The position numbers and the translations under genes are program-made. DNA of 64,000 nucleotides. It comes from Mobula hypostoma. Taxonomy: Eukaryota. Location of the stretch: assembly GCF_963921235.1 (NCBI RefSeq), contig NC_086107.1:95978001-96042000 (forward strand), given 5' to 3'. The notes below the pieces were generated by a model, which did no database searches, was not told where the DNA came from, and worked only from the letters and a program-made list of their open reading frames with translations. Below are positions 16,916-54,799 of the stretch, piece after piece (position 1 is the first letter of the stretch; each line of letters opens with the position of its first letter).

Positions 16916-17924
16916 TTGATTTCCTTTTTCCTAGGTGAAGAGCATCCTGGATAAATTTGTTAAATCTTTACACACCAAGTTTGCTTCATGGTTCGTTGTT
17001 ACAAAGAAAGAATCTGTTGTCAAGCACTGTCACTACAGTAACAGAATTAATCTGACAAATCTGACAAATGGGTGTCTCTAAAGCGCGGGTTGCCAACCTA
17101 GGGTCCATGGACCCCTCACTTCATAGTTGGGGTCCATGGCATTAAAAAGGCTGGGAACCCCCTGTAAAGCTCTCAACGATCAATGCGCTGTTGCGCTAAA
17201 ACTGAGCTATGTCGGCTTAATCCCATTAATCCAGCATCGAAATGCAAAGTTAACTCCCAGTAACATGTTGCCCACTAAATATTATCAAATTTTGTGTCTC
17301 AAAATCCACTGGGAGACGAAGCTGAAATACTTGCAAAAGAACCTTTTCTCACAGAGACTCAAATCAGATTCTCCCAAAGGTGTGATTCACTCGTCTGCTT
17401 TCTTCTTTCTGTTTGAGGGTTTAAACCGCTCATAAAGAAATGTTCAAAAGAGTAAAGGTTAGTGTTCCTTCCCTCCAAAACAACTGTTGTGTGAATGGAT
17501 GACGTGTCACGTAGTTGGTATTATCAAAGGTGAGTCATGGGGCCAGTCAGTTGTTGGGAGGGTTTTTTTTTACATATTTAAAGATAGTTGTGGAGAGTGC
17601 AGAAACTTAGATTACTGGGTTCTACTGCTCCGCGGGTCATGACTGGTTTCACACGACGCTGGGCGGGGGTGGAGGGGGAGATTCAGGCTGAATTCAGAGA
17701 ATAAGATTCTCTCACAGATTAGATTGATTAGACCTGACCTGTGGTATTCTCAAACCTTGTGAGAAGTTAAAGAAGAAGTGGCAGAGGTCCTTGTAGAGAT
17801 TTTTTTTCTTCATCTCCAGCAACAGGCGAGAATCCTGGGGACTGGGCGGTGGCTTCAAAAGGGTAGCAAAAACAAACCTGGACATTGCAGGCTGGTGAGT
17901 CTGACTTCAGTGGATTCAACAGTA

Positions 17925-18462
17925 AGCTGGGTCTCCGATTTCTAATGTCCTCCCTTTCCCCCTTCTGCTTGTAGATGAGGGTGATGATGCCCTTCCTCAT
18001 GGACTCTGACATGCTGCCGGCCAGAAGCATAGCATTGTACACTTCCAGCAGGTCTGGGCCTATCCAGTTCCACAGAGCCGAGTTCAACTCAGCCGGTAAG
18101 CCGTCGCTTCTGGGAGTCCTACCCGACCCAAAGGAACGGATGGAGCCTGTCAGCTCGTCCAGGGTCAGTGGCTGATCCAGACTCTCCCGCTTGCCGCCAT
18201 CTAAGACCTGCGTGATAGACGACAGGAAGTTGCGGGAGGCTGTGGATTCTGTGGCCTTTTCGTCGTACAGACCGGCATAGAAGGACCTGCAGATCCTCAG
18301 AATGTCTGTCTGCGAGGATGTGACTGAGCCGTCCTCTTCCTTAAGGTTGTGGATCACAGAGCTCCCCCTGTGCACCTTTTGGAAGAAGAAACGTGAGCAC
18401 GTCTCGTCCTGCTCCACGGTTCGGACCCTTGATCGGAAGATGATCTTGAAGGATGCGGCGTC
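17925..18462 (-). mobile_element. Tx1/Keno-like ORF2 internal fragment (linker to start of RT)
   Basis: DETCSRFFFQKV...GSMSESMRKGIITLIYKQKGEREDIRNRRP, nearly identical in the overlap to ORF 39269-40756. Confidence 0.85.
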
Positions 18463-18464
18463 GA

Positions 18465-19143
18465 GGTGCTGGGCTAGGAGGACTAAACTCCCTGTTACTA
18501 TTGATGGTGAGGACGTGGATGTGGGGGTGCTCCTGGATGACAGCTTGAGTAGAGCACTAACACAGAGGCTGTGTACAAGAAGGGCCAAGTCACCTCTACT
18601 TCCTGAGGAGACTGAGGTCCTTTGGAGTATACAGGCCTCTCCTTTACATGTTCTACTAGTCTGTTATCGTCACTGCAATCTTCTATGCGGTGGTGTGCTG
18701 GGGCAATGGCATCAACACGAGTGATGCCAACAGGCTCAATAAACTGATTAGAAAGGCTGGCTCTGTTATAGGAGTCAAACTGGACACACTGGAGGCTGTG
18801 GTAGAACAAAGGACACTATAGAGAATCCTGGAAATTCTGGGCAACGTTTCTCACCCTCTGCATGCCACCTTGGCTGAACAGAGGAGCACTTTCAGTAATA
18901 GACTAAGACATCTGTGCTGCTCCAAAGAGCGCTATATGAGGTCATTCTTACCCTCGGCTATTAGGTTCTGTAATGAGTCAACCTATAGCCGGGGAAGTGA
19001 TGACCCCCTCCTGTTAGACTGTTTGTAGTAACTTATTTTTTATTCTTTCTTACTTCTCTTCTAATATTGTATATCTGTGCACTTGTAATGCTACTGTGAC
19101 ACTGTTACTTCCTTTGGAATCAATAAAGTATCTATCTATTATC
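18465..19143 (+). mobile_element. Rex1/Babar-like LINE 3' end
   Basis: Decayed post-RT coding sequence ending AATAAAG followed by a TATC-repeat tail. Confidence 0.7.
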
Positions 19144-35219: not shown

Positions 35220-35850
35220 GAAGATGGTGGCGCAACGCAGCGCGCGCGACCTCTCCGGTGATGATATCTGTTATCTGTCGGGTAGGATGCCGTGCACAAT
35301 TCTGATTTGATGGAGGCAGACGTGAGAGCACGGAGGAACATCTGGTGAAACTTCTGAAATGCCTGTTTTGCTGCCGCTGCTACTGTGTGATCCGAAATCT
35401 CCGGAGGGGAAGGCCTCGAATCCTCGGCTTTGCTTGTTGCTCGGCGGCCGGGGCGGGGTCAAAGCGCTCGGCAGAGATGGTGCTCGGTGTCGGAGGGCTG
35501 ATTGGAGGCTCGAAGTTTTTGGACGAACTCAGAGTCGGACTGTGGTCGGGTACTTCCAGGATGCTGCATCGGCAAGTTTGCGGCTCTGGAAGCTCATGGC
35601 AGGGAGAGTTTCTCCCTTCTGCCGCCCGCATGAGATGTTGGGGCTATCAGGACTTTGAGACTATTTTTTACTGTGCCCATGGTCTGTTCTTTATCAAATT
35701 ACAGTATTGCTTTGCACTGTTGTAACTGTGTGTTACAATTATGTGGTTTTTGTCAGTTTTAGTCTTGGTCTGTCCTGTGTTTCTGTGGTATCATATTGGA
35801 GGAACATTGTATCATTTTTAAATGCATGCATTTCTAAATGACAATAAACG
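35220..35850 (+). mobile_element. CpG-rich ~630-bp non-autonomous retroelement-like repeat
   Basis: Starts GGAAGATGGTGGCG (LINE-like 5' end), CpG-rich head, AT-rich tail ending AATAAA; no credible ORF. Confidence 0.45.
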
Positions 35851-35854
35851 AGGA

Positions 35855-37622: not shown

Positions 37623-38004
37623 GATTGGGTGTCCTCATAATCTAATGAATCTTCATTCATTATACTTTCACAATAGAAGAAAAAAAATACAACGGATTTA
37701 TAGTCATGGCTATTACATACTGTAACATTTCCGGTAACACTTGATGTCTGTCTAGGTGTGAGCCCCTGGGTCAGCTCATAGATCAGAGTCCTCTGTTACG
37801 CAGCTGCTGGGATGAATTCTTGCATCTTCCTCCAAACCCTTAGTGCAGGGGTTCAAACCTTTTTTTATGCCACAGAACAATGCCATTAAGCAAAGGGTCT
37901 TCAGACCCTTGACTTAGCAAATCAGCAGACTGCAAAAAGGTGGGTGACTGTCTTTCCCACTGTAACCATCAAAAAGTTAGTGTCTTCCCATTAGAAGATC
38001 TGAC

Positions 38005-38235
38005 TAGAAAGACCCTCCCACCATCAGCCAGGTGAAGTCTTGGTGCCTGTTGCTGCGGTCTGGTGATGAGGCATTTTGCCATACAGTTTTGACAGCCTGC
38101 TCAGGGTACCACTCCACTGCGTCCATTACGCCCTTCTCCTGCAGTGTCTGCAGGACGTCCCACACTGACCACTGCCTGATGAACTTGTGGTCAAAGATGT
38201 TTTCTTGGAAGAAATTTTCCAGAAAGAACAGCTCG
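38005..38235 (-). mobile_element. Inverted Tx1/Keno ORF2 C-terminal fragment
   Basis: FFQENIFDHKFIRQWS..LQEK..WQNASSPD..NRHQD, homologous to 41030-41220. Confidence 0.85.
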
Positions 38236-38356
38236 TGTGACTGACAGGGAGGGTGGAGTGACAAGAAGAGCAGCCGCAAGCAGCGAAGAGGAAGAAATCC
38301 CTGAAGGCACCATCCAAGGTACAACACAAACACGAGGCACAGAGGCCATAAGTCCC

Positions 38357-38675
38357 CAGCTCCAGGAAACTGGGTGTAGCAAAGTGACCAATCAAAACCC
38401 GCTCCAGGAAACTGGGTGCAGCAAAGTGACCAATCAGAACCAGCTCCGTGAAACTGGGAGCAGCACAGTGACCAATCAGAACCAGCTCCGTGAAACTGGG
38501 AGCAGCAAAGTGACCAATCAGAACCAGCTCCGTGAAACTGGGAGCAGCACAGTGACCAATCAGAACCAGCTCCGTGAAACTGGGATCAGCACAGTGACCA
38601 ATCAGAACCAGCTCCGGGAAACTGGGAGCAGTACAGTGACCAATCAGAACCAGCTCTGGGACATTGGGAGCAGCA
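38357..38675 (+). repeat. 42-bp tandem repeat (~7 copies) encoding QLRETGSSTVTNQN within the ORF1 tail
   Basis: CAGCTCCGTGAAACTGGGAGCAGCACAGTGACCAATCAGAAC repeated in frame. Confidence 0.95.
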
Positions 38676-39040
38676 CAAGAATCTTCAACCCCCAGCTCTG
38701 GGAGTCTGGGAGCAGACCAGCATCTGGCGCACCCCGGCTCCAACAGGTGGAGGGTGTGGGTTGACCAGATCAGGATATTGGAAGGAGGCAGTGACCAAAC
38801 TCACCCCTCCCCATGCACACCACCCATATCGCCACACCCAGGGAAGAATCACCCTCAGTGTCTGAGCCTACAGTGAGGTGATTCACAAAGTTTACTAAGC
38901 CTGTGGGCATGATGCCTCAGACTGAAGGGCAAGAGGACGGGAAAAGTGATTTCAGAACTCAATCATGATCATAACGCTGGCATCTTTAAACGTTAAGTGT
39001 GAAGAGCATTGTGCAATGTGTTAGTGCCTTGCAATATCTT

Positions 39041-39264
39041 ACACAACATGCTGGAGGAACTCAGCAGGCTAGGCAGAATGTATGGAAAAGAGTAAACAGT
39101 GGACGTTTCGGGCCGAGACCCCTCTTCAGGACTGATGAAGGGTCTCAGCCCAAAACATCAACTATTTACTCTTCTCCACAGAAGCTGCCCGGCCTGCTGA
39201 GTTCCTCCAGCATTTTGTGTGTGTTGATTTGGATTTCAAGCATCTGCTGATTTTCTCTTGTTTA
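39041..39264. mobile_element. Penelope-derived palindromic insertion with 16-bp TSD; hammerhead core on minus strand (39098-39133)
   Basis: TGCCTTGCAATATCTT at 39025-39040 and 39265-39280; ~90-bp inverted arms; minus strand reads AGTC-CTGAAGA-ggggtctcggccc-GAAA-C-GTC-CACT. Confidence 0.85.
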
Positions 39265-41831
39265 TGCCTTGCAATATCTTGCCAAGCTCAAGGCTGATGT
39301 GCCTTTCACAGTCAGGTCCACCGACGTCACGCCGGTGTTCTACTCCGACCACTGCCTTCTGCGAGCCACCTGTCTCTTACGGGAGGACCAGAAGGCAGGC
39401 AGGGGGACTTGGAAGCTGAATGTAAAGCTGCTGACCCCAGAGAACATCGAGGAACTAGAGAGGGAGTACACAGGTTGGAGAACCTTGAAAGCCTTCTTTG
39501 ATTCCCCAGTTCACTGGTGGGAAGCCACCAAGGAGAACATCAAGAGGTTCTTCATCCGCAAGGGTATCCAGAAAGCAAGGCAGGAGCAGAGGGAACTGCG
39601 TAAACTCCAGACAGAGTTGCAGCAACTTCTCCTTCTGCAGTCGAAGGGGGTGGATGTGAGGGTGAAAGCAGGAGAGTCTGAATCAGCCACTGACCCTCGA
39701 GGACCTCACTGGGTCTCTTTGGATTTGATGAAAACTCCTGGCAGCATGTCAGACTCCATGAGGAAGGGCATCATTACCCTCATCTACAAGCAGAAGGGGG
39801 AAAGGGAGGATATTAGAAATTGGAGACCCATCTCTCTCCTGAATGTGGACTACAAGATCCCGCCCAGGGCTGTCGCCAACAGGGTCAAGTCTGCTCTGGG
39901 ACAGGTGATCCACCCGGACCAAACCTGTGCTGTACCAGGCAGGAAGATCTCAGACAGCCTCGCGCTGCTGAGGGACACCATCGCCTACGTGCAGGACAGG
40001 GGGGTGGACGCCTGCCTGGTCAGCTTGGACCAGGAGAAAGCCTTCGACAGGATATCGCACACGTACATGGCGGACGTGCTCTCCAAAATGGGATTTGGGG
40101 AGGGAATCCGGAATTGGATCAGACTGCTCTACACAGACATCCATAGTGCAGTCCAGGTCAACGGATGGGAAACAGACAGCTTCCCCATCAGGTCTGGAGT
40201 CAGGCAGGGCTGTCCCCTCTCCCCTGTCTTGTTTGTCTGCTGCATAGAACCCTTGGCGGAAGCCATCAGGAGGGATGAGGGCATAAGAGGGGTGACGCTG
40301 CCAGGCAGTGGAGGGACCCAAGTGAAAACCTCCCTGTACATGGACGACGTCACCGTCTTCTGCTCTGATCCGAGGTCAGTTCGCAGGTTGATTAGCATCT
40401 GCGAACAGTTTGAGCTAGCGTTGGGGGCCAGGGCCAACTGCACGAAGAGCGAAGCCATGCTCTTCGGCAACTGGCCCGACCGATCCAGCATCCCCTTCAC
40501 CATCAGGTCTGACCATGTGAAGGTGTTGGGGATCTGGTTCGGAGGGGTGGAGGCGTGCAACAAGAACTGGCAGGAGCAGACTGCCAAGGTGATACAGAAA
40601 CTGGGACTGTGGGGAGGGCGCTCCCTGTCGATAACGGGCAAGAACCTGGTCATCAGGTGTGAGGTGCTCTCAGGGCTGCTGTACTTGGCGCAGGTCTGGC
40701 CCGTCCCCCGCTCCTACAGCTCGGAAATCACCCGGGCTGTCTTCAGATTCGTCTGAGGATCCAAGATGGAGCGGGTGAGACGGACCGCCATGCACAAGTC
40801 CCTGGGCAACCGGGGCAAGAACGTCCCCAATGTCGCCCTCACCCTGATGGCCAGTTTCGTATGTGGCTGCATCAGGTTGTGTGTAGAGCCCAGGTATGTG
40901 GGCACCAAGTACCACTATGTGCCCAGGTTCTACTTGTCGCCCTGGCTACGAAGGATGGGTCTGGCCCCACTCCCGCGCAACGCCCCAGTCAGCTGGTCGT
41001 TGCCGGCATACCTGTCCTACGTAGCAAAGTTCTTCCAGGAGAACGCCTTTGACCACAGGGCCATCAGGCAGTGGTCGGCACGTAGTATCCTGCAGGCACT
41101 GCAGGAGAAGGATGTGATGGACACAGTGAGGTGGTTCCCTGAGCAGACCGTCCAGTTCATCTGGCAAAATGCCTCCTCGCCAGATCTCAGCAACAGGCAC
41201 CAAGACCTCGCCTGGCCTGCGGTGAGGCATTCTCCCAGATGATCTTGAGCTCCTTGCTCACCTTTTGGCACACTGGATCTGCGAAGGGAGCATGGAGAAA
41301 GATGCAGGGGCTTGCGACACGGTTCATCCCAGGCAGCCTCACGACGGCGGGCTCTCTGATCTCCTGGCGGTTCCGAAGGACGCATGCGGAATCCGACATC
41401 AAGTGCTATTGGCAGATTATCAGCTTGGAGAAAGACCTGCTTTGGTATGCCGGAGAGTTGTTCTACCAGCACACCGAGATGCCCGCAGAGGCACGCTGCT
41501 GACTTGCACCTACCAAGCTGCAGAACTACCTGCTGAGAGATGCACCGTAGCGTGGCGCATTGTCAACCTGGGTTTAGTGGGAAAGGACTACAGTCAGGGT
41601 TCTTCTCCTGCTGGAGACGGAGGGGTGGGGTTAGGCAAGGAAACTCGTCAAATGTTGTAGGATTGTATCACTCCCTGCCCCCCCATGACAGCATGAGTGG
41701 CAATAATCCTATTGGTTTTAAAAAGTACAATAGGACAGTACTGAAAGTACTGACTGTCAATACAAGTGCAATTTATTTATTGCATGGTAATACCTTTTTT
41801 ATTTTGAATTAAGTTTATTTTAATATTAAAA

Positions 41832-41981
41832 ATCTGTTCTTATCAGTTTAATATCTGATACATCCCTTATCTGGGGACCATATATTAAATGGATTTTTGG
41901 AACAGGGAGATGGAATAGGGGCTTGCTCCGTCCACTCCACGCATCGACCCGGTATTGCAGTGCCTCTGGGAACGGTGCACT
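41832..41981 (+). pseudogene. U2: U2 snRNA 3' portion (about nt 38-187), disrupted by Keno-like insertion
   Basis: ATCTGTTCTTATCAGTTTAATATCTGATAC...GGATTTTTGG (Sm site)...GCTTGCTCCGTCCACTCCACGCATCGACC..GTATTGCAGT..GGAACGGTGCAC closely matches vertebrate U2. Confidence 0.95.
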
Positions 41982-42839
41982 CCCCTTCTGGGGAATTTCA
42001 AAGTAGCAAAGAAAAGGAAAACAACAAAAACCCCACCCAATACCAGGCCGCACAAAGAAAGATGTTTTCTCCTCTGAAAGAGGCTTGGGTGGGCAACAAA
42101 GTATCAGGTGGAAATTGCATTTTGTATAGGGTTTAGTTCCTGAAGTCTGGTTCAAACCATAATTATAGAACTCATAATTTAATGACTCTTGCTCCCCTGC
42201 TCTTTGGCTGTCTCCCATACGCAGTGGGTACAGAAATAGGAGGAGATCACAAGGTTATATCCAGAATTGCCGGATCTTCATGGTTCACGTGCAGCTCAGT
42301 TTCCCGTCAGATCGCCAGTAAACATCACCCCAACAGCAGCCGCCTTCTTCCACAGCGCCGCGGATTCTGACTTTGAGACTTCAGTGACCGACGGCACAAT
42401 TTCGAAACAACCGCCTCCTTTCCCTTCAAATATTTCCTGTTTCAGAATCAGAATCAGGTTTATTATCACCTACGCGTGATGTGAAATTTGTTCATTTAGC
42501 AGCAGCAGTTCAATGTAATACATAACCTCGCAGAGAGAAAAAAATAATAATAATGAACAAGTCAGGTCGTAATCAATATAAGTTTCATTCCACAGTGCTC
42601 ACTCCTGAACCCCCTGACAAGACACTCTTGGGCAGTAATGTTCAAAACTCATCTTTTTGTTGCCTGTTGTGGGTAACCGGAATCTTCCGTCACCGAACCC
42701 AAACGATCTTTAACAGATTCCAAAGACAGTTGGTGAAAAGCGAAAAAACAGACATGTGCTGAAAGGATCCGGCCTTTTATAAATTGCTGCTTTCCTGGTA
42801 AACCACTCACAGTTTCCTCCACAGGCTACAGGAGGGAAA

Positions 42840-43664
42840 GGTCTGACTCACTGTTGCAAAGGATGGACCTGACCCTTTTGCCACACAATGCCCCAGTCAG
42901 CTGGACGTTGCCGCCATACCTGTCCTTCATGGAGAAGTTCTTCCAGGAGAACGTCTTTGACCACAGGGCCGTCAGGAAGTGGTCAACACAGAACATCCTG
43001 TGGACACTGCAGGAGAAGGACGTGATGGACAGAGTGGGGTGGTTCCCCGAGCAGACTGTCCAGGTCATCTGGCAAAATGCCTCATGGCCAGACCTCACCA
43101 AGATATTGTGAGAGGGATCATGACTGATGACTGGAGCATCACTCCCATGGGATGACTATAGTGGGGAAGAGACAGTAAGAGACCTCTTTGCAGACTGATC
43201 TATGGCTGCTTTCTCGTGATGCACACGGGGACTGATATCAGGTGGTGCTGGCAGACCACCAACTCGGTGAAGGACGCCTTCTGGTCGGCCCGAAACTTGC
43301 TGGACTCCCAGCACATCGAGGTGTCCATGGAGGAATGCTGCTGACTAACAAGTCCCACGCTGCAGGAGTACCTGCCGAGGGACGCGGTGAAGCTTGGTGC
43401 AAGGGCTCGGTGGGGAGGGACCACAGTGTAGGGGATGTCTTCTATTGGAGAGGGAGGGGCTGGGTTGGGGGAGGAAGCCCATTCATTATTGCAGTTGTAT
43501 ACTATCCCTGGGGGGGGGCACATGAGTGGGATCAGTGCAATGGATGTGTAGGAATGTAATAGAACAGGGCTGAAAGCATTGACTATCAGTGTAGAGAATG
43601 AAAAGGCATTGCTTGGTGCACTTGTGAGAATATTTTTATTATAAATAAGGTTTACTTTGGTTAT
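42840..43664 (+). mobile_element. Tx1/Keno-like copy B, 3' fragment
   Basis: NAPVSWTLPPYLSFMEKFFQENVFDHRAVRKWS...; 3'UTR ending tttttattataaataaggtttactttgg, like copy A. Confidence 0.85.
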
Positions 43665-43730
43665 TCTGTTTTTACAACTCTGTTTAATATCTGAAACAAC
43701 CATTAACTGGGGACCAAATATCAAGCATGG
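43665..43730 (+). pseudogene. U2: Degraded U2 snRNA fragment (about nt 39-100) at copy B 3' junction
   Basis: tctgtt...gtttaatatctgaaac...ctggggaccaaatatcaagcatgg aligns to 41833-41892. Confidence 0.7.
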
Positions 43731-44387
43731 GACTTGACGACAAAACCCCATGCATAGAACACAAAGGATGAGGCCACGCTTTTCCGTCACACACCCGACT
43801 GATCCAACGTCTCTGTAAGATTTGATTAGCATTATTTGTCACAGGTACATCGAAACATACAATGAATCAACAACTAACAGTGCGAGGATGCAGGATGTGA
43901 TGGAGGCAGCCCGCAAGTGTTGCCATGCCAGCATAGCATGTCCACAGCTTACTAATCCGAACGTCCTTGGAATGTGGGAGGAAACCAGAGCACCCAGAGG
44001 AAACCCACGTTGTGACAGGAGAGAATGTACTAACTCCTTACAGGCAGCACCAGGAATGGAACCCCAATCGCTGGCACTGTGAATCGTTATGCCAGCCACT
44101 AAGTACCATGCCACCCAAAGCCCAACTTTGCATGACAATGGACTTCATTGTTTTTTTGTTCTAATTGTACACGTTCAGTATAATGTTGTAGAATTAATGT
44201 TTCTATTTCACTTGTGTCTGTGATGCTGCTGCCATTAACGTTTTCAGTGCATCAATACGTACATGTACTCGTGCAAATTAACCAGCTCGACTCTGAGGTT
44301 GGGGCACACGCGTTAGTGTAGTCTGGCTGCTGGGAATGCCCAGAGTGGGAGGGGCCATTCGGGATTCTGAGGGTGTGTGGACACCAC

Positions 44388-44391
<4 letters not shown>

Positions 44392-44440
<49 letters not shown>

Positions 44441-44480
44441 ATGTGTGTGTGTGCGCGCGTATGTGTGCGCGCACGCGTGT
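44392..44480. repeat. (TG)n / (CG) microsatellite
   Basis: Directly visible. Confidence 0.95.
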
Positions 44481-44926
44481 GACCTTTGAAAACTGACCCA
44501 AGAGGGCCATTAGTCTAGGAATATTCAACCTTCTACATTGTATTTATCATGGGAATGAATAAAATACATTCTGAGGGAAAGGTTACACCCAGCAGTGCAA
44601 GTCAGGTTGGCACCTAACAACATCTGACAACTGGTACCTTTCAGACCCGACCAGCACTGACACTGACTGCAAACACCCATAAACCTCTCAGCTCAGGACT
44701 GCATTTGGGAATGCAGAGCTTTGACCCATTGAATGTAAAGTATTCAACAGAAGCACCCTGAAGACATGCATGTCCTGTTTAAAAACCAGATGCCGGACAA
44801 ATCTGTGGATAGTACAGCCCAGCAGTGCAGAACAGTATCATGGGCCGGTGACGTGGACTGGGGGAGAGGAGATAGCTCACAAAGTAGCTGCAGTGAGTGT
44901 TGTCCCTGCACAGTGAGGGCAGAGAC

Positions 44927-45481
44927 TGTTAGAGTGAGTTTTTTTGGGTGGATGATTTATTACACTTAAGTGACTTTGGCCACCAGACTTCTATTTGACA
45001 AAGTACTGTGGATTGAGTCCACAACAATGCGCTTCCTAAAAAGGTGCGAATACCAGATGCTTCTGGCACCGTACTTTCACCTGATGCTGTAGTTTCGAAG
45101 ACAGTATTATCTATACTTTATAAATATTAATTGTCTTCTATGTTAGCACGGAAATGCCAAATAAATGCATCGTGGATTTAACTTGCATTTCTAAAGGCTG
45201 TGGATACCAACCCAGACATGTTGGCGTCGGAAGGAAAGGATGGTGTGATATTTTGTATGTAGCTTCATTAGGAAGTATTGTCTATGCAGTGTCTATAACT
45301 TTTTAAGTAGTGATTGCCTTTGTGTTTAGCATATAAATATCAAGCCCACATTCAGCTAGCAGACCTTTCTACAGAAAGCATCTCCGTCCATATGATGCCT
45401 GCTGTACCTTGTGTTGAATAAAGAAGCTGCTTTGTATCTACCAGAAACTGTCTCTCCAGTGGTTTCATCCACGCTACAACA
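44927..45481 (+). mobile_element. Solo LTR (555 bp) with 5-bp TSD GAGAC
   Basis: TGTT...AACA termini; GAGAC at 44922-44926 and 45482-45486; TATAAA ~45332, AATAAA 45417; absent from the paralogous arm near 57211. Confidence 0.88.
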
Positions 45482-45561
45482 GAGACAACCAAATCTCAAG
45501 TACATGACATAGGTGTGAATGCAGGTCCCTGTTAATTTCTGAGTCTCCCCAAAAAGCAAAA

Positions 45562-46198
45562 TTCAGCTTAGTTGCTGCAGCCTCTCTGGGTGCAAATGTT
45601 TTCCTGTGAGTACATGACCCTGTTGGACATGGGTGATACAAAATACTGCAAGTTCACTCCATTGGTTCATTGGTGAGATCGAATTCAGGGGAGCCTTGTG
45701 GCCTCAGTTTTTGCATGGACCAGGCCCTCATGCTGCAGGGTCGCCAGTCACAGCTACCCAGAGAAGGAGGCACTAGTCGCAGTGTGGGAGATTACAGAGG
45801 TGCGGTGGGGGCACTGGAATCTGTGCTGGGTTGGGGGCTAGTTCCTGCAGCCTGGCCCTCCCATCACCGCAGGTCTCCAGTGCTCGCTCCGTGGAAGACA
45901 AGCCGGATTGCCCTAATCTGCGGCTGACCCAATGCCAGATAAGGAACTGCTACATACCTGTTCCTGCAGAAACATGGCTTCAGGACAACAGCCCTTGCAC
46001 CATCAATCTTCAAGTCACGACACTCAGGGACCTGTGCTAATATTATATTGTGACTGTATGTGCTACCGTAACTATATGTGCTGTTTGCTGTGTGTGACTG
46101 TATATACCGTGTTTTGGACCTTGACCCCGGAAGAATACTGTTTCATTTAGCTGTATACGTGTGTGGTTGAATGAGAATTAAACCTGAACTTAAACTTG
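45562..46198 (+). mobile_element. Non-LTR retroelement-like insertion with AAACTTG-type tail
   Basis: Absent from the paralogous arm (~57150); 3' end attaaacctgaacttaaacttgaa resembles the tail at ~25505-25523. Confidence 0.6.
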
Positions 46199-46612
46199 AA
46201 AAATACTATCCCGAGAGTAGATATACAAAAGGAGACAGGGGCTGTCATATGCTCAGGAAATTGAGATTTAACATGGATGAGTTAGCACACAACCCATTCC
46301 TAAAACGTAGCCGGCATTGTTGCAGCCACCCTGATCAACAGGGACTGGAACCAGGACAGGATGTGTGGGTTACTCTGTCTACAGTTCTCAGTGTGGGCCA
46401 AACACAAAGACCGGGAGCTAAAAACCCGTTTACAAAAGAAACACCATTAAGCCTGATGCACTAGCAGCCAGTTACAGTTTAGCGAAGGAATTAAAACAGC
46501 AGAGGATACCAAGTGAGATTTCATGGAGTCAAGAAACCAGACAGATCATCTTGCCCTCAGTAAGCTCACATCACCACCTCAGTATCAGGAGCTGTGGTAG
46601 ATTTCCAGCATA

Positions 46613-47139
46613 CAGTACTGAGTAAAAGTCTTAGGTACATACATATTGCTAGGGTGCCTATGACTTTTGCACAGCCCTGTAGCAATTTTATCTATTGCAT
46701 TGTAAAAAAAAACAACAAAATTAATGACATATGTGAGCGACGATAAACCTGATTCTGATATGGGTCTCTATTGTGGACTGAGAGTGGGAAGGGGGTCAGG
46801 GAGAGGGGAATCATAGTTGGGAAAAGAAAAGGGAGAGGGGAGGGAGCGGGGAGTATCAGAGAGACATTTTGTAATGAACAATAAACCAATTGTTTGGAAC
46901 CAAATGACGTTGTCTTGTCTCAGAGCTGGGTGGGTCTGCACCCCACCACCGGCACTCCTTCTCTACCACCTGACCGCGCCCACCCCCCCGTGATCCTTTG
47001 CCCTCGCCATTCTCAACATCCTTTGCTCCCTCCAGATTTACAAACTCAGCCTCCAATCCACATTGACAAATACAGTACTGTGCAGAAGTCTTAAGCACCC
47101 TAGCTATATATATGTACCTAAGAATTTTGCATAGTACTG
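46613..47139. mobile_element. Tc1/mariner-like MITE with 67-bp TIRs that are themselves palindromic, TA-flanked
   Basis: TA|CAGTACTG...CAGCCCTG|TA (46613-46679) and TA|CAGTACTG...TAGTACTG|TA (47073-47139) are approximate reverse complements. Confidence 0.75.
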
Positions 47140-48139
47140 TACATGGCAATAGCAATCAATGCTGGAAAACTCCCACATTTCCCACATGTGTAGCAGCATT
47201 TTGAGGGGCTAAGTTTATCTCTTATACTAGCCCTCATCCCTAAATAAGCCCGTCTCTACAATGTCGGAGGGGAGTCACAGATCCAACTGTCTCTCACACA
47301 GCCTTTCTTTCTTTTCCTCCTTCTCCCTCTATATATCTTACTCTCTCTCTCTCTCTCTCTCTGTCTCTCTAACTTGACCTACTCCAACTCGTAGCAGTAG
47401 TACCAGTTGTGATCTAGCATAAGGCAAAGCTCTCCCCACCACACAAAGAAAGCGACCATTTTTATACCCTTTTAGATTTCTTCGAAGCCTAACAGAAGTA
47501 TCAGCCCAGTTGTTTTCCATGCCTTGGTGGTAGCAGCTGCTCCCCCTTATCTTTTACGACCTGTAGCCCAGACACATAATTGAAGAAAACAGAGGCAATC
47601 GGTTTGTCAGGAGGAAAACATTATTTATTATCTGATCTCAGGGATTTGAACTGGCGAACATCTCCAGACCACCACAACATTCCACTGACACCATCTTGTC
47701 CTCGAACTTCCATTTTGTCTTGGCATGTAATGGAGGAATCACAATTAACCCTTTCCTTATAGGCTGTGATTTAACAGTGGAATTAAACATTTTTTAAAAA
47801 TAACTACAACACACTTTGAATGCAAAATAGTACTGTTCTGGTTACTTCGGATGACTTGATTTGCCCACCAGAGACCGCGCTTAAAGTTCTATCAAACTCA
47901 GTTAATAATCTCAAATCTGAAGTCATCAGTGAGAATGACCAGCAAACCATGCTGTTGCTACAATAACTTATGGTGGTCATTAGATTGTGGGAGATCTGCC
48001 AGGCTGACCAACTCACGGTCAGACCACACACAGGTGAGCCCTACTTCCCCCTCTGACAATACAATCACCAATTCCCAGTCTGTATACATCCCGTTTAGCA
48101 GCACATGGTCTGTAGACTTCTTTACCTTGGCAACTCCAA

Positions 48140-50282
48140 TACTTGTCTAGAGATGTGAGTGGGCAACCCTGTTTGACTCCAGACTTGATGTGGAAGCTAT
48201 CTGTTTCAGTTAAAGTCACTGACTAGAAGGACTGGCTGGGATCTCAACAGTAGCAGTGGGAGCTGCTCGAGGATGACCAGTAGCTTCCTCAACAAGGGCA
48301 AGGCATACACATTGATAACCAGAGCGGAGCGTTACAGTACATTTCGTCTGCCTTGTGGAGATGCAAACCAACCACCTCCTTGCTCCCATCTCCGTAGCAG
48401 AATCCCCAGGCTGGAAGCGCGACAATCGTTCCCCATCCCCCACCCTAACCAAACAGACAAACCCTGGGGCCACCATCGCGACCAGCTCCAGTAGTTGTGG
48501 AGGTGTGGTGGCCTTCGCTCCTGTAAGAAAGTCACATCGGCATTGACCTTGGCCAGGTACTGTAAGACATCTCACAGATCTCTTTACACTGCACACATTT
48601 AATGATGCCTGTCTGAAATCAATGTCCATTATTTGTCCTTGAGGAACAGTTCATACGTGGTCACTCAGCCCGAGCAGTCATGCCCACGGCCTTCATGAGG
48701 ATAATCCTCCCCCAGGGGAAGCGGTACCGGTGGTGTGACTGGGGGAGGGGGGACATTGCTCATTGGTTCTTCTACATCCTGCACTGGCCAACCAGCCCCC
48801 TCCACCTCCCTGAGCTGGGATGACCCAACCCAGATCATCAGAGCTGGGGGGGTGGGGGTAGTGGCTCCTGTGCTTCTCCCAGTCTCCCGGATCTGGGGGC
48901 CAGAGGCCACTGTACAACTCCGGATGCCGTGAAGCTGGAGATGACTGGGCACCCTGCTGCTCTCAGCCTCCTGGGCTGGGGTCTTCTGGCCTCTGTGCTG
49001 CCCCCAGTCTCCCAGAGCTCCTTTCCCAACTCTATTTTCCTTTTCTAGCTTTTCCTGCTCTGCGACGTGCTTCCCTTGGCTGGCTGCTGGTCTCCCGCAC
49101 TTGCTTCGTCCTCTGGCGAAGATAGGCTGTCGTCGGCTGCTTGTTGCCCTGCTCTCCTTCTCTTCCCGTTCCTTTACTTTTCTTCAGTCTCTTGTCATGT
49201 TTCTTCCTCTTCACCCCCTGCCATTCTTCTTCTCCCTCTGCTCTCCCCTCCTCCTCGTCTTGTGGAGCGACCTGGAGATTTTGGGTGGGGAAGTGGGAGC
49301 TCGGGGTGGCTGGTCCTTCCTCAGTCACAGTCTCTGAACCAGTGCTGGGCATGGCCTCTGTGCTGGTGGTGGGTGTGTCGGCGTTTGCCTGAGCCTTTAG
49401 CAGTGCCAGCTCCTCCTCTGGTCACCTGTGCGTAGGTGCCCCCACGCCTCGGGCAGGCCCTGTACAGGTGGCCAGCCTGTCCGCAGAGGTTGCAGGACTT
49501 GGCCTGCGTGCAGTTCTTTGTCTGATGCCCCTCTGTCTTGCTATTCTTAAACATCATTGCCATGCACTGTGCCGCGATGTATCCCGCCTTGTGGTAGATC
49601 CGGGGTTGCCCAGCGTAGATCATTTAGCCGCGATTTTCTCCGATGGCGAAAACTGAGGGGGGGTGGATGACGCCGCCGTCGGAGTCCACACTCAGCTTCA
49701 CCTTGACCTGCCGCTTGCTGGTCCAGATTCCCAGTCCGTCCTTCACGTCTGCTGGAGTTCCTACGCTCTCCACATACCGAGCGAGGAATGTAAGGACATC
49801 TACCACTGGCACGTGCGGGTTGAACATGTGCACCGTGATTGTCCGTTCCTGCTGGGTAGCCGTGGCAAAGAGGGCCTGTGCTTTCAACAGCGACAGCGGC
49901 GCCTCTGTCCCCTTCAGCTGAAGTTGCTGGTACAGCTTCTGCCACCCTGCAACCTGCTGGAAGGTGACGTTAAAGAAGCCGGCGAAATCCTGCAGGCAGT
50001 AGATGTTCTCGGCCTTAAATCCGCAGCAGTCTATTAAGATCTTCCGGATGAAGGTCTCTCTGGTGAAGCCGGTGCCCCCGTTCTGCTCTCGCACTGTCAG
50101 CCTGACAGTTTTCCTGATTCCCGGACCTCAAGTCGATGCACGGGTAACTTTAGCCATCTTCGTTATCACCTCCGTCATCACTGGACAGGGGTGCTAGATT
50201 GGGAACCAATCCACATGAAGATCCGCCCCTGCGTCAGCGGGAAATCCTCTCCTCTGCCTTCTGATCACAGTGAGTCCACCTT
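48140..50282 (-). mobile_element. Tx1/Keno-like copy C: 5'UTR, ORF1 (RRM-like region + zinc knuckles), start of ORF2
   Basis: FTRETFIRKILIDCCGF..IYCLQDF..GIWTSKRQVKVKL; CNLCGQAGHLYRACP knuckle; ORF2 start-like ASLNV..SVK at ~48620; RT scrap IKSGVKQGCPL at ~48170. Confidence 0.88.
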
Positions 50283-50322
50283 GATACTGCACTTGATCTT
50301 AGCCAAAAAGCCGAGAAATGAC
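50283..50322 (-). pseudogene. U2: U2 snRNA 5' portion (nt 1-40) at copy C 5' junction
   Basis: Minus strand GTCATTTCTCGGCTTTTTGGCTAAGATCAAGTGCAGTATC versus recalled U2 ATCGCTTCTCGGCCTTTTGGCTAAGATCAAGTGTAGTATC (35/40). Confidence 0.9.
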
Positions 50323-50720
50323 AGCTTTACCTCTAGCTCTGAGCACTAGTCACATTCCAGGAAAAGGAAAGGTTCCTCTCTTGCACAAAGAAATTGACTC
50401 TTTTTATACCCTTAAAGACTATTTTCTATCTCATGCAACCTTTGGCCAAGACGAAGCAAATTAAAAATAGAGACAGCTGGAGTGAAAGGAGAAAAACATT
50501 CTTCACCAGTATCTAATCTTAATGATGTGTATTCAAAATAGAGACAAAACATTGGGCAATTAGAGGGGAAGATGGCCATCGCCACATTCCAAGCTAACAT
50601 CGTTTGGTTTTACACATTTTAGCATGAACTGAAGAGGAATATAACTTAACCCTTTCCTTGTAAGACCAAAGGGAATTGTTCTGACATATGACAAAAGTGA
50701 CAAAACAGACTTGTCCTGAA

Positions 50721-50908
50721 AACAAAAGATACTGTAGATGCTGGAAATTCAGAGCAACACACACAAAATGCTGGAGGAACTCAGCAGGTCAGGCAGCATC
50801 TATGGAAAAGAATAAACAGTCATGTATTGGGCCAAGACCCTTCAACAGGACCCAGTCCAGATGCCATCTGACCTGGCGAGTTCCTCCAGCATTTTGTGTG
50901 TGTTGATC
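50721..50908. mobile_element. Penelope-derived fold-back insertion with 9-bp TSD TGTCCTGAA
   Basis: TSD at 50712-50720 and 50909-50917; arms acacacaaaatgctggaggaactc / gagttcctccagcattttgtgtgt. Confidence 0.8.
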
Positions 50909-51282
50909 TGTCCTGAACTGTATCTTAAAGGCAGGTTTACAGTTTTTAACAATGTGCTAATTCAGCAGATTGTTACTTAGTGCTTTATCTGGCCTCATCC
51001 TGAAGTTTTCCATTCACTGATTAACACAAACATTCATTGATTGCCTTCCCCTGTGTAGTTTCAGTGGGACAGAATCAGAATGTCCCACACCAAATGATTG
51101 GTTACTCCAGCACAAAGTATCAGTTGGGAGTTAATACGTGTACAGATTTTATTTCCTAAAAACTGGCTCTCATTTAGTTCATCCACAATTATGCAATCCA
51201 TAATTTCATAACTCCTAAATAATCCCTAACAGTCTCAAAAAAACATGACCTTCACTGAGTTGGTGGTCAGCAACACTTGCCT

Positions 51283-51289
51283 GTGTGTG

Positions 51290-51343
<54 letters not shown>
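51283..51343. repeat. (TG)n microsatellite
   Basis: Directly visible. Confidence 0.95.
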
Positions 51344-51344
<1 letters not shown>

Positions 51345-51544
51345 ATCCACCCCTGGGAACAACCTATAGATCACAGAGTCTCTGATACAAAGAACAGGGC
51401 TGAGCTGTCTGAACTCAACCTAGTGCGGTCTGGCTGTGCTCCATCTGTAAGGGGTGCTGAAGGCGTCACTCATCGTGGCATTTTTAACCATTTCCATCAG
51501 GAACCTGGAGGTTCCATCCATTCTGCTATTGGGACTAGTCGACT

Positions 51545-52380
51545 TTGCTATTGGTGACTAGTGGTGTTCCACAAGGGTCTGTGTTGTGACTGCTCTTTTT
51601 TACGTTATATGTCAATGACTTCGATGACAGAATTGATGGCTTTGTGGCCAAGTATGCAGATGATACAAATATAGATAGAGGGGCAGGTAGTTGTGAGAAA
51701 GTAGAGAGGCTACAGAAGGACAGGCAGTTTAGGAGAATGGGCAAAGAAGTTCCAGATGGAATGCAATGTCGGGTTGAGTCAGTGGTGGAGGCGGCAAATG
51801 CAATGTTACCATTCATTTTGAGAGGAGTAGAATATAAAAGCAAGGATGTAGTGCTGAGGCTTTATAGAGTATTGGTGAGGCCTCAATTGGAGTATTGTGA
51901 GCAGGTCTGGGCCCCTTGACTTAGAAAGGATGTGCTGAACTGGAAAGGGTTCAAAGGAGGTTCACAAAAATGATTCCAGGATTGAAAGGCTTGTCATATG
52001 AGGAGTGTTAGATGGCTCTGTCCCTCTACTCTCTGGAATTCAGAAGAATGAGGGGTGACATTGAATCCTATCAAATGTTGAAAGAGCTCAATAGAATGGA
52101 TGTGGAGAGGATGTTTCCTATTGTGGGGGAGTCCAAAACCAGAGGACACAGCCCCATAATAGAGGGTGTCTTTTTAGAAGGAGATACAGAGGAATTTCTT
52201 TAGCCAGAGAGTGGTGAATCTGTGGAATTTGTTGCCAGAAGTAGCAGTGGAGGCCAAGTTGTTGGGTATATTTAAGGCAGAGGTTGATCGATTATTGATT
52301 AGTCAGGGCATGAAAGGCTATACAGAGGAGGACGGAGATTGGGGCTGAGAGGGAAGTGGCCCAATTCTGTTACTATATCT
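51545..52380 (+). mobile_element. CR1 LINE 3' fragment
   Basis: AKYADDT, LYRVLVRPQLEYC, LYSLEFRRMRGD. Confidence 0.85.
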
Positions 52381-52399
52381 GCCAGCCACTTTGATGGTA

Positions 52400-54410
52400 C
52401 AGTTGAAGTTACCAGCCAGAATGACTGACTGAGATGTCACCAGCAGCAGTGGAAGCTGCTGGAGGATGGCCAGTCGCTTGTTCCTCACAGTTGAGGCATA
52501 AGCTATTAATTAACCAGTGCGGAGTACTAAGGTACATTACTTATACCAGGAGGAGACACCTCTCCCAATCACGTCTTTGACGCCAATGATTGAAAAATTG
52601 ACTGCCTGAAGCAGAATCCCCAGATCAGGAGTGTGACTGTCATTGCCCCCTGACCACACAGACAAACTGTGGGACCACCATCGTGACCACCTCTGGTAGT
52701 TGAAGAGGTATGGTAGCCTGTACTCCTGTAAGGATATCGTGACAACCTTGAACTTGGCAAGGCATTGACATTCTTCACACTGTGCATGGCCAATGGAGGA
52801 ACTGTGTCTTGGAATTAGAATTCTAGTTCACCATCCCTCATGCCTGCAGCCTTGGTGAACTGCTTTACTGCTTGTGGGTGCAGATACTGAGTATGGTCCT
52901 CCCCTGAACAGGATGGGTCAACACTTGTGTTGTCTCTGGGGGGAGGTTGGTCTCCACTTCTGCTTCTGATATCTTGCTCTGGTTGATCAACCCCCTCCCC
53001 CGCTCTGAGCTGGGGTGCGCCATCTGTTAGTCTGTTCTGCTCGCGGTCTCCTGGAGTGGGGTGATCTGCTCCTGTGCTGCCCTCAGTCTCCCGGGGATAA
53101 GAGGAGGCCAGCAGAATTTGTTCCTCACCCATTTGTGCCTGTTGGCTCTCTTTCTCTCTGCCTTCTCCTTTCTGCACTTCCTCTGCCTGTGTTATCAGTT
53201 TCCCACAGTTGCTTCACCCTCTGACGATGAGAGGTTGTTGGCACCTTTCTGCTGCCCTGCCCTTCTCTTCCCATTCCTTTTACTCCGAGCAGTCTGTTGT
53301 CTCTCTGGGAATTCTTCTTTTCACCACCGGCCATTCGTTCTCTTGCTCATCTGCTTTCCCCTCCTCCACTTGGGGAAGGCCTGGAGTCTCAAAGCTGAGG
53401 GCTGGGAGCTCGAGGCAGTCGGCCTTTCCCCAGTTCAGTCTCGGCTAAGGCCGCTGTGCTGCTAGTGGGGGTGTCACCATTTCTCTGGGGGTTCTCAGTT
53501 CCGGCTCCCCCTCTAGTTGCTTGTGTGTAGATGCTGGCATGTTTCGGCCAGACCGTAGAGAGGTGGCCTGCCTCTCCACACAGGTTTTGCTTCCCCTGCA
53601 GTCCTTTGTCCTGTGGCCTTCCTGTTCTGTAGTTCTTGCAGGTTGCCGCACTGCACTGGGCCGTGACACGTCCAGACGAGTTGCAGTTACAGCACAGCCT
53701 GGGTTGACCGACATGAGGCAAGTAACTGTCGTTCCCTCTGACAGTGAAGAATGAGAGAGGGTGGATGATGGCAATACTCACGTTCACCCTCAGCTTGACC
53801 ATCACCTGGCGCTTACTTGTCCAAATCCTGAACGTGTCCTTGATGTCTACGCAGTTTTCTGTTCCCTCGGTGTAATGGGTAATGAAGGCGAGGACATCCA
53901 TTACGAGCACCTGTGGGTTGAACCTGTTCACTGCGATCACACGGTCCTCTGGGAGGGGACAGACAAGAGTGGCCGCACCTTCAGAAATCACAACGGCACC
54001 TAGTTCTCCCTTTCTCCTAAAAGTTCCACAGCAATGTCAACCATCCCACCATATACTTGAAGGTGACATTGAAAAAGCCCTTAGCAGTGAAGTTTTGGAC
54101 ATAGCAAAGGTTCTTCACCTGAAACTTATAGCATTCTGGCAGGACCTTCTGAAGAGAGCACTCCACGATGAAGGGGTTTCCCTCATTGCCACCCTGACTG
54201 TGTTTCGAATCCCCGGTCCTCTTGCCGATCTGTTACTGCAGCCGCCCTGACTGAGCTCAGGTGTTGCACAATTGCTGGAAAGGGGTGTGACATTGGGCTC
54301 CAAATCTGCATGAGCATCCACTCCTACGTTAGCAAGTTAGGCTCTTACCAGCAGCCTCTTATCTTCTTCAATGTCGGTGTCTGCAGAGATCTACCTCGAG
54401 CTGGTTCCTG
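52400..54410 (-). mobile_element. Tx1/Keno-like copy D (older): ORF1 and start of ORF2
   Basis: GPGIRNTVRV, FNPQVLVMDVLAFI, IWTSKRQVMVKL, GQPRLCCNC, CGEAGHL; homologous to copy C. Confidence 0.82.
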
Positions 54411-54451
54411 CAGATGCTACACTTGATCTCAGGCAATAGGCCCAGACAGAT
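54411..54451 (-). pseudogene. U2: Degraded U2 snRNA 5' portion (about nt 1-42) at copy D 5' junction
   Basis: Minus strand ATCTGTCTGGGCCTATTGCCTGAGATCAAGTGTAGCATCTG resembles U2 nt 1-42. Confidence 0.75.
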
Positions 54452-54799
54452 CACTGGGTCACAAGTTATTATGGGGACTCATGCAGGTGTAGTGTTATTC
54501 TCCCTTTCATGCATAAAAGGTGTTGAGTCCATTTGGGAGTGAAGTATGACTGCCATTTATGCTGCTTGGGTTCACCTTATAGGAAGTAACAGTGAATGAA
54601 CCCTACCACACCCGTCGTGCACCTGATTGTGTCTCTAACTTCACACACAATTGCCTTTTTGCTTGCATGATAGCATTTTAAAGGACAGACCTGGACTACA
54701 TCTCAGATTCTGAATCACTTGTTTTGAACACCACAGACCTAGCCCTTGGTAGACTGTGAATCTTCTAGTCCATCCAGGGTTTCTGGTTTTCTTTTAGTT

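What the first reader, a model, noticed from the sequence alone, without database searches (positions are those of the whole stretch)
38237..54451. Cluster of four U2-snRNA-targeting Tx1 (Keno-like) retrotransposons, with both junction types breaking U2 at about nt 38-42
Seen: copy A (+) ends directly on U2 nt 38 (41832) and copy B (+) on a degraded U2 nt ~39 (43665). Copies C and D (-) begin directly after U2 nt 1-40 (50283-50322) and nt ~1-42 (54411-54451). Established: Keno is a Tx1-clade family inserting sequence-specifically into U2 near this position, the branch-point recognition region (GUAGUA). Inference: four copies of visibly different age and ORF sequence within 16 kb point to a U2/Keno graveyard with several subfamilies. 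The A and C junctions both include (A)TC, suggesting a 2-3 nt TSD.
Basis: partly seen in the sequence, partly recalled or inferred. Interest (0 to 1): 0.8.

Follow-up and report, generated by a model that had tools for sequence, protein, structure and literature searches.

The report
Dead Keno-type LINEs splitting U2 genes
Several decayed copies of a known kind of jumping gene (Keno, a LINE that inserts only into U2 spliceosomal RNA genes) lie here against the broken halves of the U2 genes they hit, which is real but expected behaviour for this family.

Summary
The window has four U2 snRNA remnants and no others. Each abuts the end of a Tx1-type LINE copy. Copies A and B (+ strand) end on U2 from nt 38/39. 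Copies C and D (- strand) begin straight after U2 nt 1-40 and about 1-42. The copies carry a ZCCHC3-like ORF1 with a zinc knuckle, an AP-type endonuclease and an RT. In a careful tree, A's RT falls in a clade with 100/99 support that also holds two fish-type elements which I found split-U2-flanked in metagenome contigs. The 3' junction is the one published for Keno (PMC4640811, PMC6136364). I also found two more Keno fragments (38004-38240; 17914-18477). All copies are dead and internally deleted. Three things are not shown: genome-wide specificity (no genome held), that the locus was a U2 array (flanks unrelated), and B's U2 identity independent of A. Verdict: a new member of a known kind, low interest. 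In passing: a U1-specific Tx1 lineage in fetched invertebrate arrays.

The parts
38241..41831 (+). Copy A: 5'-truncated, internally deleted Keno-type LINE. It holds the ORF1 tail/linker with a 42/84-bp tandem repeat at 38356-38720, a foreign hairpin repeat at 39041-39266, a few endonuclease N-terminal residues and the endonuclease C-terminal end, the RT at 39728-40756, the ORF2 C-terminus, the 3' UTR and a short A tail.
   Evidence: RVT_1 E 9.2e-36 in 39251-40756. tblastn to P0003 aa 227-363 and 515-1015, so aa 364-514 are missing. In-frame stop at 40754-40756 and a later frame change. Linker aligns to copies C and D at 65-66%. Tandem repeat.
41832..41985 (+). U2 snRNA gene remnant, nt 38/39 to the last Rfam model position, directly after copy A's A tail.
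   Evidence: Rfam RF00004, 120.5 bits, with good alignment only from about model nt 38. Sequence. Matches the published Keno 3' target (PMC6136364 passage).
42859..43664 (+). Copy B: short 5'-truncated copy of the same family (ORF2 C-terminus plus 3' UTR).
   Evidence: 84% nt identity to A 40951-41193. tblastn to P0003 aa 1080-1138. 3' UTR colinear with A up to the junction.
43665..43740 (+). Degraded U2 remnant from about nt 39 to about nt 105, directly after copy B.
   Evidence: 40 nt at 87.5% to A's U2 piece, E 7.6e-6. Alignment. Not above background with an invertebrate U2 query.
48148..50282 (-). Copy C: complete 5' end. It holds the 5' UTR, ORF1 (49321-50127, one in-frame stop), the linker, and the endonuclease up to the GDFN motif (about 48209). 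That is joined directly to a 20-aa RT piece (48207-48148), after which homology ends.
   Evidence: ZCCHC3 RBD1 E 6.3e-12, RBD2 E 7.3e-24, zf-CCHC_2 E 3.4e-6. tblastn.
50283..50322 (-). U2 nt 1-40 directly upstream of copy C's 5' end (5 mismatches by my reading against the U2 5' end of L089).
   Evidence: Rfam 33.3 bits, E 0.006. Top score (28) of the whole-window scan.
52360..54410 (-). Copy D: complete 5' end (about 45 nt more than C between U2 and the shared 5' UTR), decayed ORF1, and endonuclease to 13 aa past the GDFN motif. It is cut off there by the 3' end of another LINE.
   Evidence: RBD2 E 1.3e-9. tblastn to P0003 aa 71-180 and P0027 aa 26-156. Translation. C-D alignment at 61-66%. 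Boundary sequence.
54411..54451 (-). Degraded U2 nt about 1-42 directly upstream of copy D.
   Evidence: Rfam 22.1 bits, E 2.9. Second-best score (25, background 13 or less).
38004..38240 (-). Fragment E: inverted piece of a further copy (ORF2 C-terminal region) abutting copy A's truncated 5' end.
   Evidence: 80% to A 41026-41216 and 77% to B 42920-43101 in reverse orientation. ORF translation.
17914..18477 (-). Fragment F: isolated RT N-terminal piece of the same family, 20 kb away. It covers the part that copy A lacks.
   Evidence: tblastn to P0003 aa 366-553, 44%, E 1e-45. 91% nt identity to A 39740-39844 over 105 bp. Translation.

Best explanation
These are dead copies of a Keno-type LINE, a Tx1-group non-LTR retrotransposon whose AP-type endonuclease cuts U2 snRNA genes just 3' of the branch-point-recognition sequence.

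Inferred mechanism: the bottom strand is nicked opposite U2 nt 38/39. The A-rich 3' tail of the element RNA is reverse-transcribed from that nick (target-primed reverse transcription). The top strand is cut 2-4 nt further on. A full-length insertion therefore sits between U2 nt 1-40/42 and U2 nt 38/39-188, duplicating 2-4 nt and killing that gene copy.

At least four separate insertions of diverged sublineages hit U2 gene copies in this neighbourhood. Two further fragments are also present. Later deletions, other repeat insertions and rearrangements removed the other half of every copy, and no working U2 gene is left in the window.

Shown here: the junctions, the domains and the tree placement. 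Inferred: the nick positions, the order of events, and that the locus was once a U2 gene cluster.
For: Junctions:
- Four of 4 U2 pieces in the window abut a Tx1-type end.
- Both 3' ends join U2 at nt 38/39, and both 5' ends follow nt 40 or 40-42.
- A and B align through the 3' UTR to the same junction. C and D align from their 5' UTRs.

Domains:
- RVT_1, ZCCHC3-type RBDs and a CCHC knuckle appear in 5 of 16 ORF translations scanned.
- C and D match aa 22-63 and 26-156 of P0027, whose Exo_endo_phos domain spans aa 7-227.

Relatives:
- 1977 proteins had E<=1e-3 among 7999 scored. The best are amphibian entries at 55-57% identity. One listed hit is named 'transposon TX1' (Danio), and two are the older Danio and Takifugu LINE deposits BAC82621 and BAD04856.

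Trees:
- FastTree, 230 rows: A falls in a 71-row clade (support 97) that holds only L001 and L002 among the 113 locus rows.
- Careful IQ-TREE, 46 rows: the clade {A + 5 amphibian-type rows, the P0039 group, the fish group with L001/L002} has support 100/99.

Independent junctions in relatives:
- L001: U2 nt 1-26 | element | A run + U2 nt 38/39-188, in a U2-U5 array.
- L088: U2 nt 1-40/41 | element | A13GG + U2 nt 38 onward.
- L091: A10 + U2 nt 38/39 onward.

Literature (passages read):
- Keno is a Tx1-clade element specific for U2 (PMC4494074).
- Its 3' flank equals Utopia's, starting at nt 39 (PMC4640811).
- The quoted 20-nt 3' target is given in PMC6136364.
Against: - No copy here keeps both junctions, so the target-site duplication is not read from the window itself.
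- B's U2 is not recognisable with an independent U2 query.
- No named Keno consensus (Repbase) could be put in the tree. The 'U2' label rests on two related loci, L001 and L002, that I labelled from their flanks.
- L002 shows U2 only at its 5' side and none within 1.7 kb after its ORF2 stop.
- The two other U2-split relatives, L088 and L091, fall outside A's clade. U2 targeting therefore does not map to one clean clade in my trees.
- A + amphibian rows have only 86/78 support.
- Copy A's 5' end abuts an inverted Keno fragment, not U2.
- The flanks of the U2 pieces share no similarity, so a former U2 array is not shown.
- Genome-wide specificity is untested.
Confidence: 0.9

Rival explanations
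1. The U2 nt 1-40 pieces in front of C and D are not target flanks. They are snRNA 'heads' added when the reverse transcriptase switched template onto U2 snRNA, as in crocodilian SINEU and snRNA-headed Tx1 families. On this reading the copies need not sit in U2 genes.
For: snRNA-derived 5' heads on Tx1-mobilised elements are in print (PMC4494074, passages). The sequences upstream of U2 nt 1 at C and D are unrelated to each other, and I could not show a U2 promoter there.
Against: The break falls at the same U2 position (nt 40-42) in two copies that are only 61-66% identical, and also in the invertebrate L088. It is complementary to the 3' junctions at nt 38/39 in A, B, L001, L088 and L091. A 3' flank cannot arise by template switching. 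In L001 and L088 the split U2 halves sit in real snRNA gene arrays.
Confidence: 0.04
2. There were fewer insertion events than copies. C/D (and A/B) would each descend from one insertion that was copied by segmental or array-unit duplication and then diverged.
For: C and D share orientation, the junction position, and a break within about 40 bp of the same endonuclease motif. A and B share orientation and junction.
Against: C and D align over 1.3 kb at 61%, but 780 bp of upstream flank on each gives no alignment, even with word size 7 and E<=1. D has about 45 nt more between U2 and the shared 5' UTR. A and B are truncated at different points, and their downstream flanks are unrelated.
Confidence: 0.12
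3. The elements are Utopia, the other U2-specific LINE lineage that uses the same site, or an untargeted LINE lying next to U2 pseudogenes by chance.
For: Utopia's 3' junction is identical to Keno's (PMC4640811 section 6).
Against: Utopia encodes a restriction-like endonuclease. These copies and all their close relatives carry an AP-type endonuclease N-terminal to the RT, and their RT falls among Tx1-type proteins. Four of 4 U2 pieces at element ends, with no other U2 piece in 64 kb, is not chance.
Confidence: 0.01

Closest known systems
Keno (KenoDr1/KenoFr1, Keno-1_SSa; Tx1 group of the L1 clade; Kojima and Fujiwara 2004, known to me only through passages in PMC4494074, PMC4640811 and PMC6136364)
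   Same: AP-type endonuclease plus RT. Insertion into U2 with the 3' flank starting at nt 38/39. The RT sits in the same strongly supported clade as fish elements that I found flanked by split U2.
   Different: A's RT is only 45-47% identical to the fish members and 55-57% to its nearest (amphibian) database proteins. It forms a branch beside the fish group, not inside it. Every copy here is fragmentary.
Utopia (U2-specific non-LTR lineage with a restriction-like endonuclease; PMC4640811)
   Same: Same insertion site in U2. Arrays can hold several diverged families side by side.
   Different: Different endonuclease type and different RT lineage. Reptile Utopia makes 20-bp duplications, whereas the relatives here show 3-4 nt (L088) or a 12-nt target deletion (L001).
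Crocodilian Tx1-Mar families and SINEU (PMC4494074)
   Same: Tx1 lineage clustering with Keno in that paper's tree. U2-derived sequence at element 5' ends.
   Different: Those insert into a Mariner transposon and carry the snRNA piece as part of the element. Here U2 also follows the 3' ends, at the complementary position.
R1/R2 in 28S rDNA and Mutsu in 5S rDNA (recalled general knowledge)
   Same: The strategy of living in a multicopy RNA gene, killing the hit copy and leaving the rest to serve the host.
   Different: Different target and, for R2, a different endonuclease.

Membership tests
Keno (U2-specific Tx1-group LINE) | RT groups within the Tx1 group with U2-inserted elements | tested here: met
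   Careful IQ-TREE, 46 rows: a clade with the split-U2-flanked L001/L002 has support 100/99. FastTree, 230 rows: a 71-row clade (97) holds L001/L002 and none of the other 111 locus rows. Caveat: no Repbase Keno reference was available, so the labels come from my own flank analysis.
Keno (U2-specific Tx1-group LINE) | AP-type endonuclease N-terminal to the RT | tested here: met
   C and D match aa 22-63 and 26-156 of P0027, whose Exo_endo_phos domain is aa 7-227. A keeps only the domain's end. Pfam itself does not call the decayed fragments.
Keno (U2-specific Tx1-group LINE) | 3' end followed by U2 from nt 38/39 (the published 20-nt 3' target) | tested here: met
   Copy A: exact match to the 20 nt quoted in PMC6136364. 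Copy B: the same position, degraded.
Keno (U2-specific Tx1-group LINE) | Full-length 5' end preceded by the U2 5' part | tested here: met
   C follows nt 40 and D follows nt 40-42.
Keno (U2-specific Tx1-group LINE) | Most genomic copies of the family lie in U2 genes | not testable with these tools
   No genome is held for this window and no reads were laid. Only the six pieces in the window could be seen.
Utopia | Restriction-like (PD..D/ExK) endonuclease, no AP-type endonuclease | tested here: not met
   An AP-type endonuclease is present. The relatives carry PF03372.
snRNA-headed Tx1-Mar / SINEU type | The snRNA piece is part of the element, and copies insert into a non-U2 target | tested here: not met
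   U2 also follows two 3' ends at the complementary nucleotide. For C and D alone the test is inconclusive, because the upstream flanks are uninformative.

The most novel reading that the evidence does not exclude
The window is the wreck of a local U2 gene cluster in which every U2 copy was hit: 4 of 4 remnants are split at the Keno site and none is intact. The hits came from at least two or three diverged sublineages of a previously unsampled vertebrate branch of Keno. The same 2-4 nt staggered cut (U2 nt 38-41) is kept from invertebrate to vertebrate lineages that are far apart in the RT tree, which would mean the site choice is ancestral to a large part of the Tx1 group and not a property of one family.
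Probability: 0.3. Interest if true: 0.35.

Novelty: new member of a known kind. Interest (0 to 1): 0.2.

Why it matters
This adds a diverged vertebrate branch to a target-specific LINE family known since 2004. It also gives clean examples of both junction types. For genome annotation it explains why Rfam reports a 'full-length' U2 here that is really a 3' piece. It shows what an exhausted target locus looks like: only split U2 remnants, and elements that were later gutted. It does not change what is known about how such elements work.

Tried and rejected
No reads were laid either, so the orthologous locus in the second organism that holds a third of the stretch's words was not examined.
- Naming the two older database entries in A's clade (BAC82621, BAD04856) as Keno: one search found one paper, which lists BAD04856 without a family name. 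That they are Keno remains my guess from their position next to L001/L002.
- Viral contigs: no relative found.
- Earlier notes of this scan on this genome or on look-alike stretches: none.
- A and C as the two halves of one element split by an inversion: rejected. They overlap in the linker and endonuclease start at only 66% identity.
- E + A as a twin-priming inversion: rejected. E corresponds to a region inside A's own span and is only 80% identical to it.
- Array-spacer homology among the flanks of the four U2 pieces: none found.
- The inverted duplicate 43824-46391 / 58234-56963 was considered as a U2 spacer. It looks like an ordinary interspersed repeat and was not pursued.
- A snRNA 3' box after A's U2 and a proximal promoter element before C's U2: I could only compare these with motifs recalled from memory, so I make no claim.
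Full report
OBSERVATION. The Rfam gathering scan of all 64 kb returns a single match, U2 at 41790-41985 (+), 120.5 bits. Its alignment is poor over the first ~37 model positions: low posterior, a 20-nt insert and a 5-nt gap. It is excellent from about nt 38 (window 41832) to the last model position. So this is a U2 3' part, not a whole gene.

The permissive scan (15 matches with E<=10) adds two sub-threshold U2 matches: 50239-50322 (-), 33.3 bits, E 0.006, and 54372-54453 (-), 22.1 bits, E 2.9. To judge these without leaning on the window itself, I scanned both strands with an intact U2 nt 1-42 taken from an unrelated fetched locus, L089. The two best scores in the whole window are 28 (copy C's piece) and 25 (copy D's piece), and the next best is 13.

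Copy B's piece matches A's U2 piece over 40 nt at 87.5%, E 7.6e-6. It is colinear with A through the 3' UTR into U2. With the invertebrate U2 nt 39-100 it scores 12, which is background, so B's U2 identity depends on A's.

Four of 4 U2 pieces lie at the very end of a LINE copy, and none lies elsewhere.

ANATOMY. Pfam was run on 16 ORF translations of the region. It finds:
- RVT_1 in 39251-40756 (E 9.2e-36).
- ZCCHC3-type RNA-binding domains 1 and 2 in C's ORF1 (E 6.3e-12 and 7.3e-24).
- A CCHC knuckle just after them (E 3.4e-6).
- RBD2 in D's ORF1 (E 1.3e-9), and RBD1 weakly (E 0.0012, below the cut-off).
- One spurious sub-threshold hit, and nothing in the other 10 translations.

tblastn with full-length relatives gives the layout of each copy.

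- Copy A (38241-41831, +) starts in the ORF1 tail/linker. There a 42/84-bp unit is tandemly repeated, whereas C and D have one unit. It carries a foreign hairpin repeat at 39041-39266. It keeps only a few residues of the endonuclease start and its end. It lacks RT N-terminal aa 364-514 of P0003. It then runs through the RT and the ORF2 C-terminus, with one in-frame stop and a frame change, to a short A tail.
- Copy B (42859-43664, +) is an 0.8-kb 5'-truncated copy.
- Copy C (50282-48148, -) has a complete 5' end and an ORF1 with one stop. Its endonuclease runs up to the GDFN motif, which is joined directly to a 20-aa piece of the RT around the GVRQGCPLS motif. Homology then stops.
- Copy D (54410-52360, -) has a complete 5' end, a decayed ORF1, and the endonuclease to 13 aa past GDFN. 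There the 3' end of another LINE abuts it.

Two more pieces belong to the family. E (38004-38240, -) is 80% identical to A. F (17914-18477, -) covers aa 366-553 of P0003 and is 91% identical to A over 105 bp.

Pairwise nucleotide identities are A-B 84%, A-C 66%, A-D 65% and C-D 61-66%. All copies are dead.

FAMILY. A's RT finds 1977 proteins with E<=1e-3 among 7999 scored. Nearly all of the 120 listed carry RVT_1 and an AP-type endonuclease domain. The nearest are amphibian entries at 55-57% identity. One listed hit is named 'transposon TX1' (Danio), and two are the older Danio and Takifugu LINE deposits.

Because no Repbase names were available, I labelled relatives by their own flanks. A scan of metagenome contigs kept 80 loci of 529 confirmed. 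A scan of prokaryote genome contigs gave 72 loci, which are host DNA mis-binned into MAGs. Viral contigs gave none.

Of these 152 loci, 10 hold U2 sequence. Four have U2 split at the Keno site:
- L001: U2 nt 1-26 | element | A run + nt 38/39-188, in a U2-U5 array.
- L002: 5' side only.
- L088: nt 1-40/41 | element | A13GG + nt 38 onward.
- L091: A10 + nt 38/39 onward.

In a FastTree of 230 rows (1 window, 116 database proteins, 113 loci), A sits with five amphibian-type proteins (support 99). That group sits inside a 71-row clade (97) that contains L001 and L002 and no other locus row.

In a careful IQ-TREE of 46 rows, with four long-branch rows left out, the clade {A + amphibian-type rows, an unlabelled 5-row group, the fish group with L001/L002, BAD04856 and BAC82621} has support 100/99. 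A + amphibian rows have 86/78.

Against a tidy picture, L088 and L091 fall in the other half of the tree, next to lancelet proteins and a lineage with a different target. L002 shows no U2 within 1.7 kb after its ORF2 stop.

LITERATURE. I read passages or named sections, not whole papers.
- PMC4494074: Keno is a Tx1-clade element specific for U2, found in vertebrates, lancelet and cnidarians.
- PMC4640811 section 6: Utopia's 3' flank starts at U2 nt 39 and is identical to Keno's. Keno has the AP-type endonuclease.
- PMC6136364: quotes the 20-nt Keno 3' target, which equals window 41833-41852.

The original description (Kojima and Fujiwara 2004) was not available to me.

MECHANISM. The junctions are shown. 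The rest follows from established target-primed reverse transcription and is inference here.
1. The bottom strand is nicked opposite nt 38/39.
2. Reverse transcription is primed on the A-rich tail.
3. The top strand is cut after nt 40-42.
4. The result is a 2-4 nt duplication, which is seen directly only in L088. L001 shows a 12-nt target deletion instead.

The insertion splits U2 right after the branch-point-recognition sequence and so kills that gene copy.

RIVALS.
- Template-switch 'heads' (PMC4494074) cannot explain the 3' flanks or the complementary positions.
- Duplication of one insertion is disfavoured for C/D. The elements still align at 61% over 1.3 kb, but 780 bp of upstream flank do not align at all.
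- Utopia is excluded by the endonuclease type.

NOT SHOWN.
- Genome-wide specificity.
- That this was a U2 array: flanks are unrelated, and no intact U2 or other snRNA reaches the gathering score.
- The order and dates of events.
- Why C and D both break within about 40 bp of the GDFN motif.

VERDICT. This is a correct and careful first reading of a known phenomenon: a new, diverged member of the Keno kind, with low interest (0.2). The scan's earlier notes concern other genomes. They gave me the snRNA-head rival and a lead on breaks at coding motifs, which I could only partly test.

Noticed in passing
L089:2303-8425; also L004, L018, L083, L084, L086, L087, L088, L093: Contigs binned into a bacterial MAG, plus independent metagenome contigs, are an invertebrate-type 2081-bp U2-U1-5S tandem array (Rfam). 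A Tx1-type LINE lineage sits inside the U1 genes: U1 nt 1-15/18 | element | short A run + U1 nt 3 onward, so 13-16 bp of the 5'-splice-site-recognition end are duplicated. The same 3' junction occurs at 10 places in 8 loci, including tandem insertions. The lineage is a 98-99-supported clade. PMC4640811 lists only a DNA transposon (Dada-U1) for U1. My two searches (listings only) showed no paper on a U1-specific LINE.
   Followed up: partly
window 48148-48209 and 52360-52400: Copies C and D, which otherwise look like independent insertions, both lose homology within about 40 bp of the endonuclease GDFN motif. C jumps from there to a 20-aa RT-motif piece. D is met by the 3' end of another LINE. 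I have no explanation.
   Followed up: partly
window 17914-18477 (-) and 39682-39728: An isolated RT N-terminal fragment lies 20 kb away. It covers almost exactly the part deleted from copy A (aa 364-514), overlaps A by 105 bp at 91% identity, and ends right after the NWRP motif.
   Followed up: partly
window 39041-39266; also 50720-50851, 13390-13493, 16818-16912, 21977-22119, 30238-30345: A short hairpin (MITE-like) repeat family. One copy is inserted in copy A and another lies just upstream of copy C's U2 piece. Rfam gives only sub-threshold plant-miRNA-like matches.
   Followed up: no
window 43824-46391 (+) versus 56963-58234 (-): Inverted duplicate segments at 75-85% identity, lying downstream of copy B and beyond copy D. 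This is probably an interspersed repeat. A sub-threshold SCARNA2 match at 44335-44537 overlaps a (TG)n run.
   Followed up: no
window 35822-37235 (+), 51590-52354 (+), 25572-26540 (-), 61151-61984 (-): Other LINE families unrelated to Keno: RVT_1 hits, a YADD-type RT tail at 51590-51919, and repeats of it at 1501-2006, 11142-11666, 29165-29549 and 56106-56642. The window is largely repeats, and no host gene was recognised among ORFs of 170 aa or more.
   Followed up: partly
L001:6549-6665: The fish-type Keno locus L001 lies in a tandem unit holding U2 and U5 genes. The next unit's U2 is again broken at nt 26, so successive units carry the same insertion.
   Followed up: no
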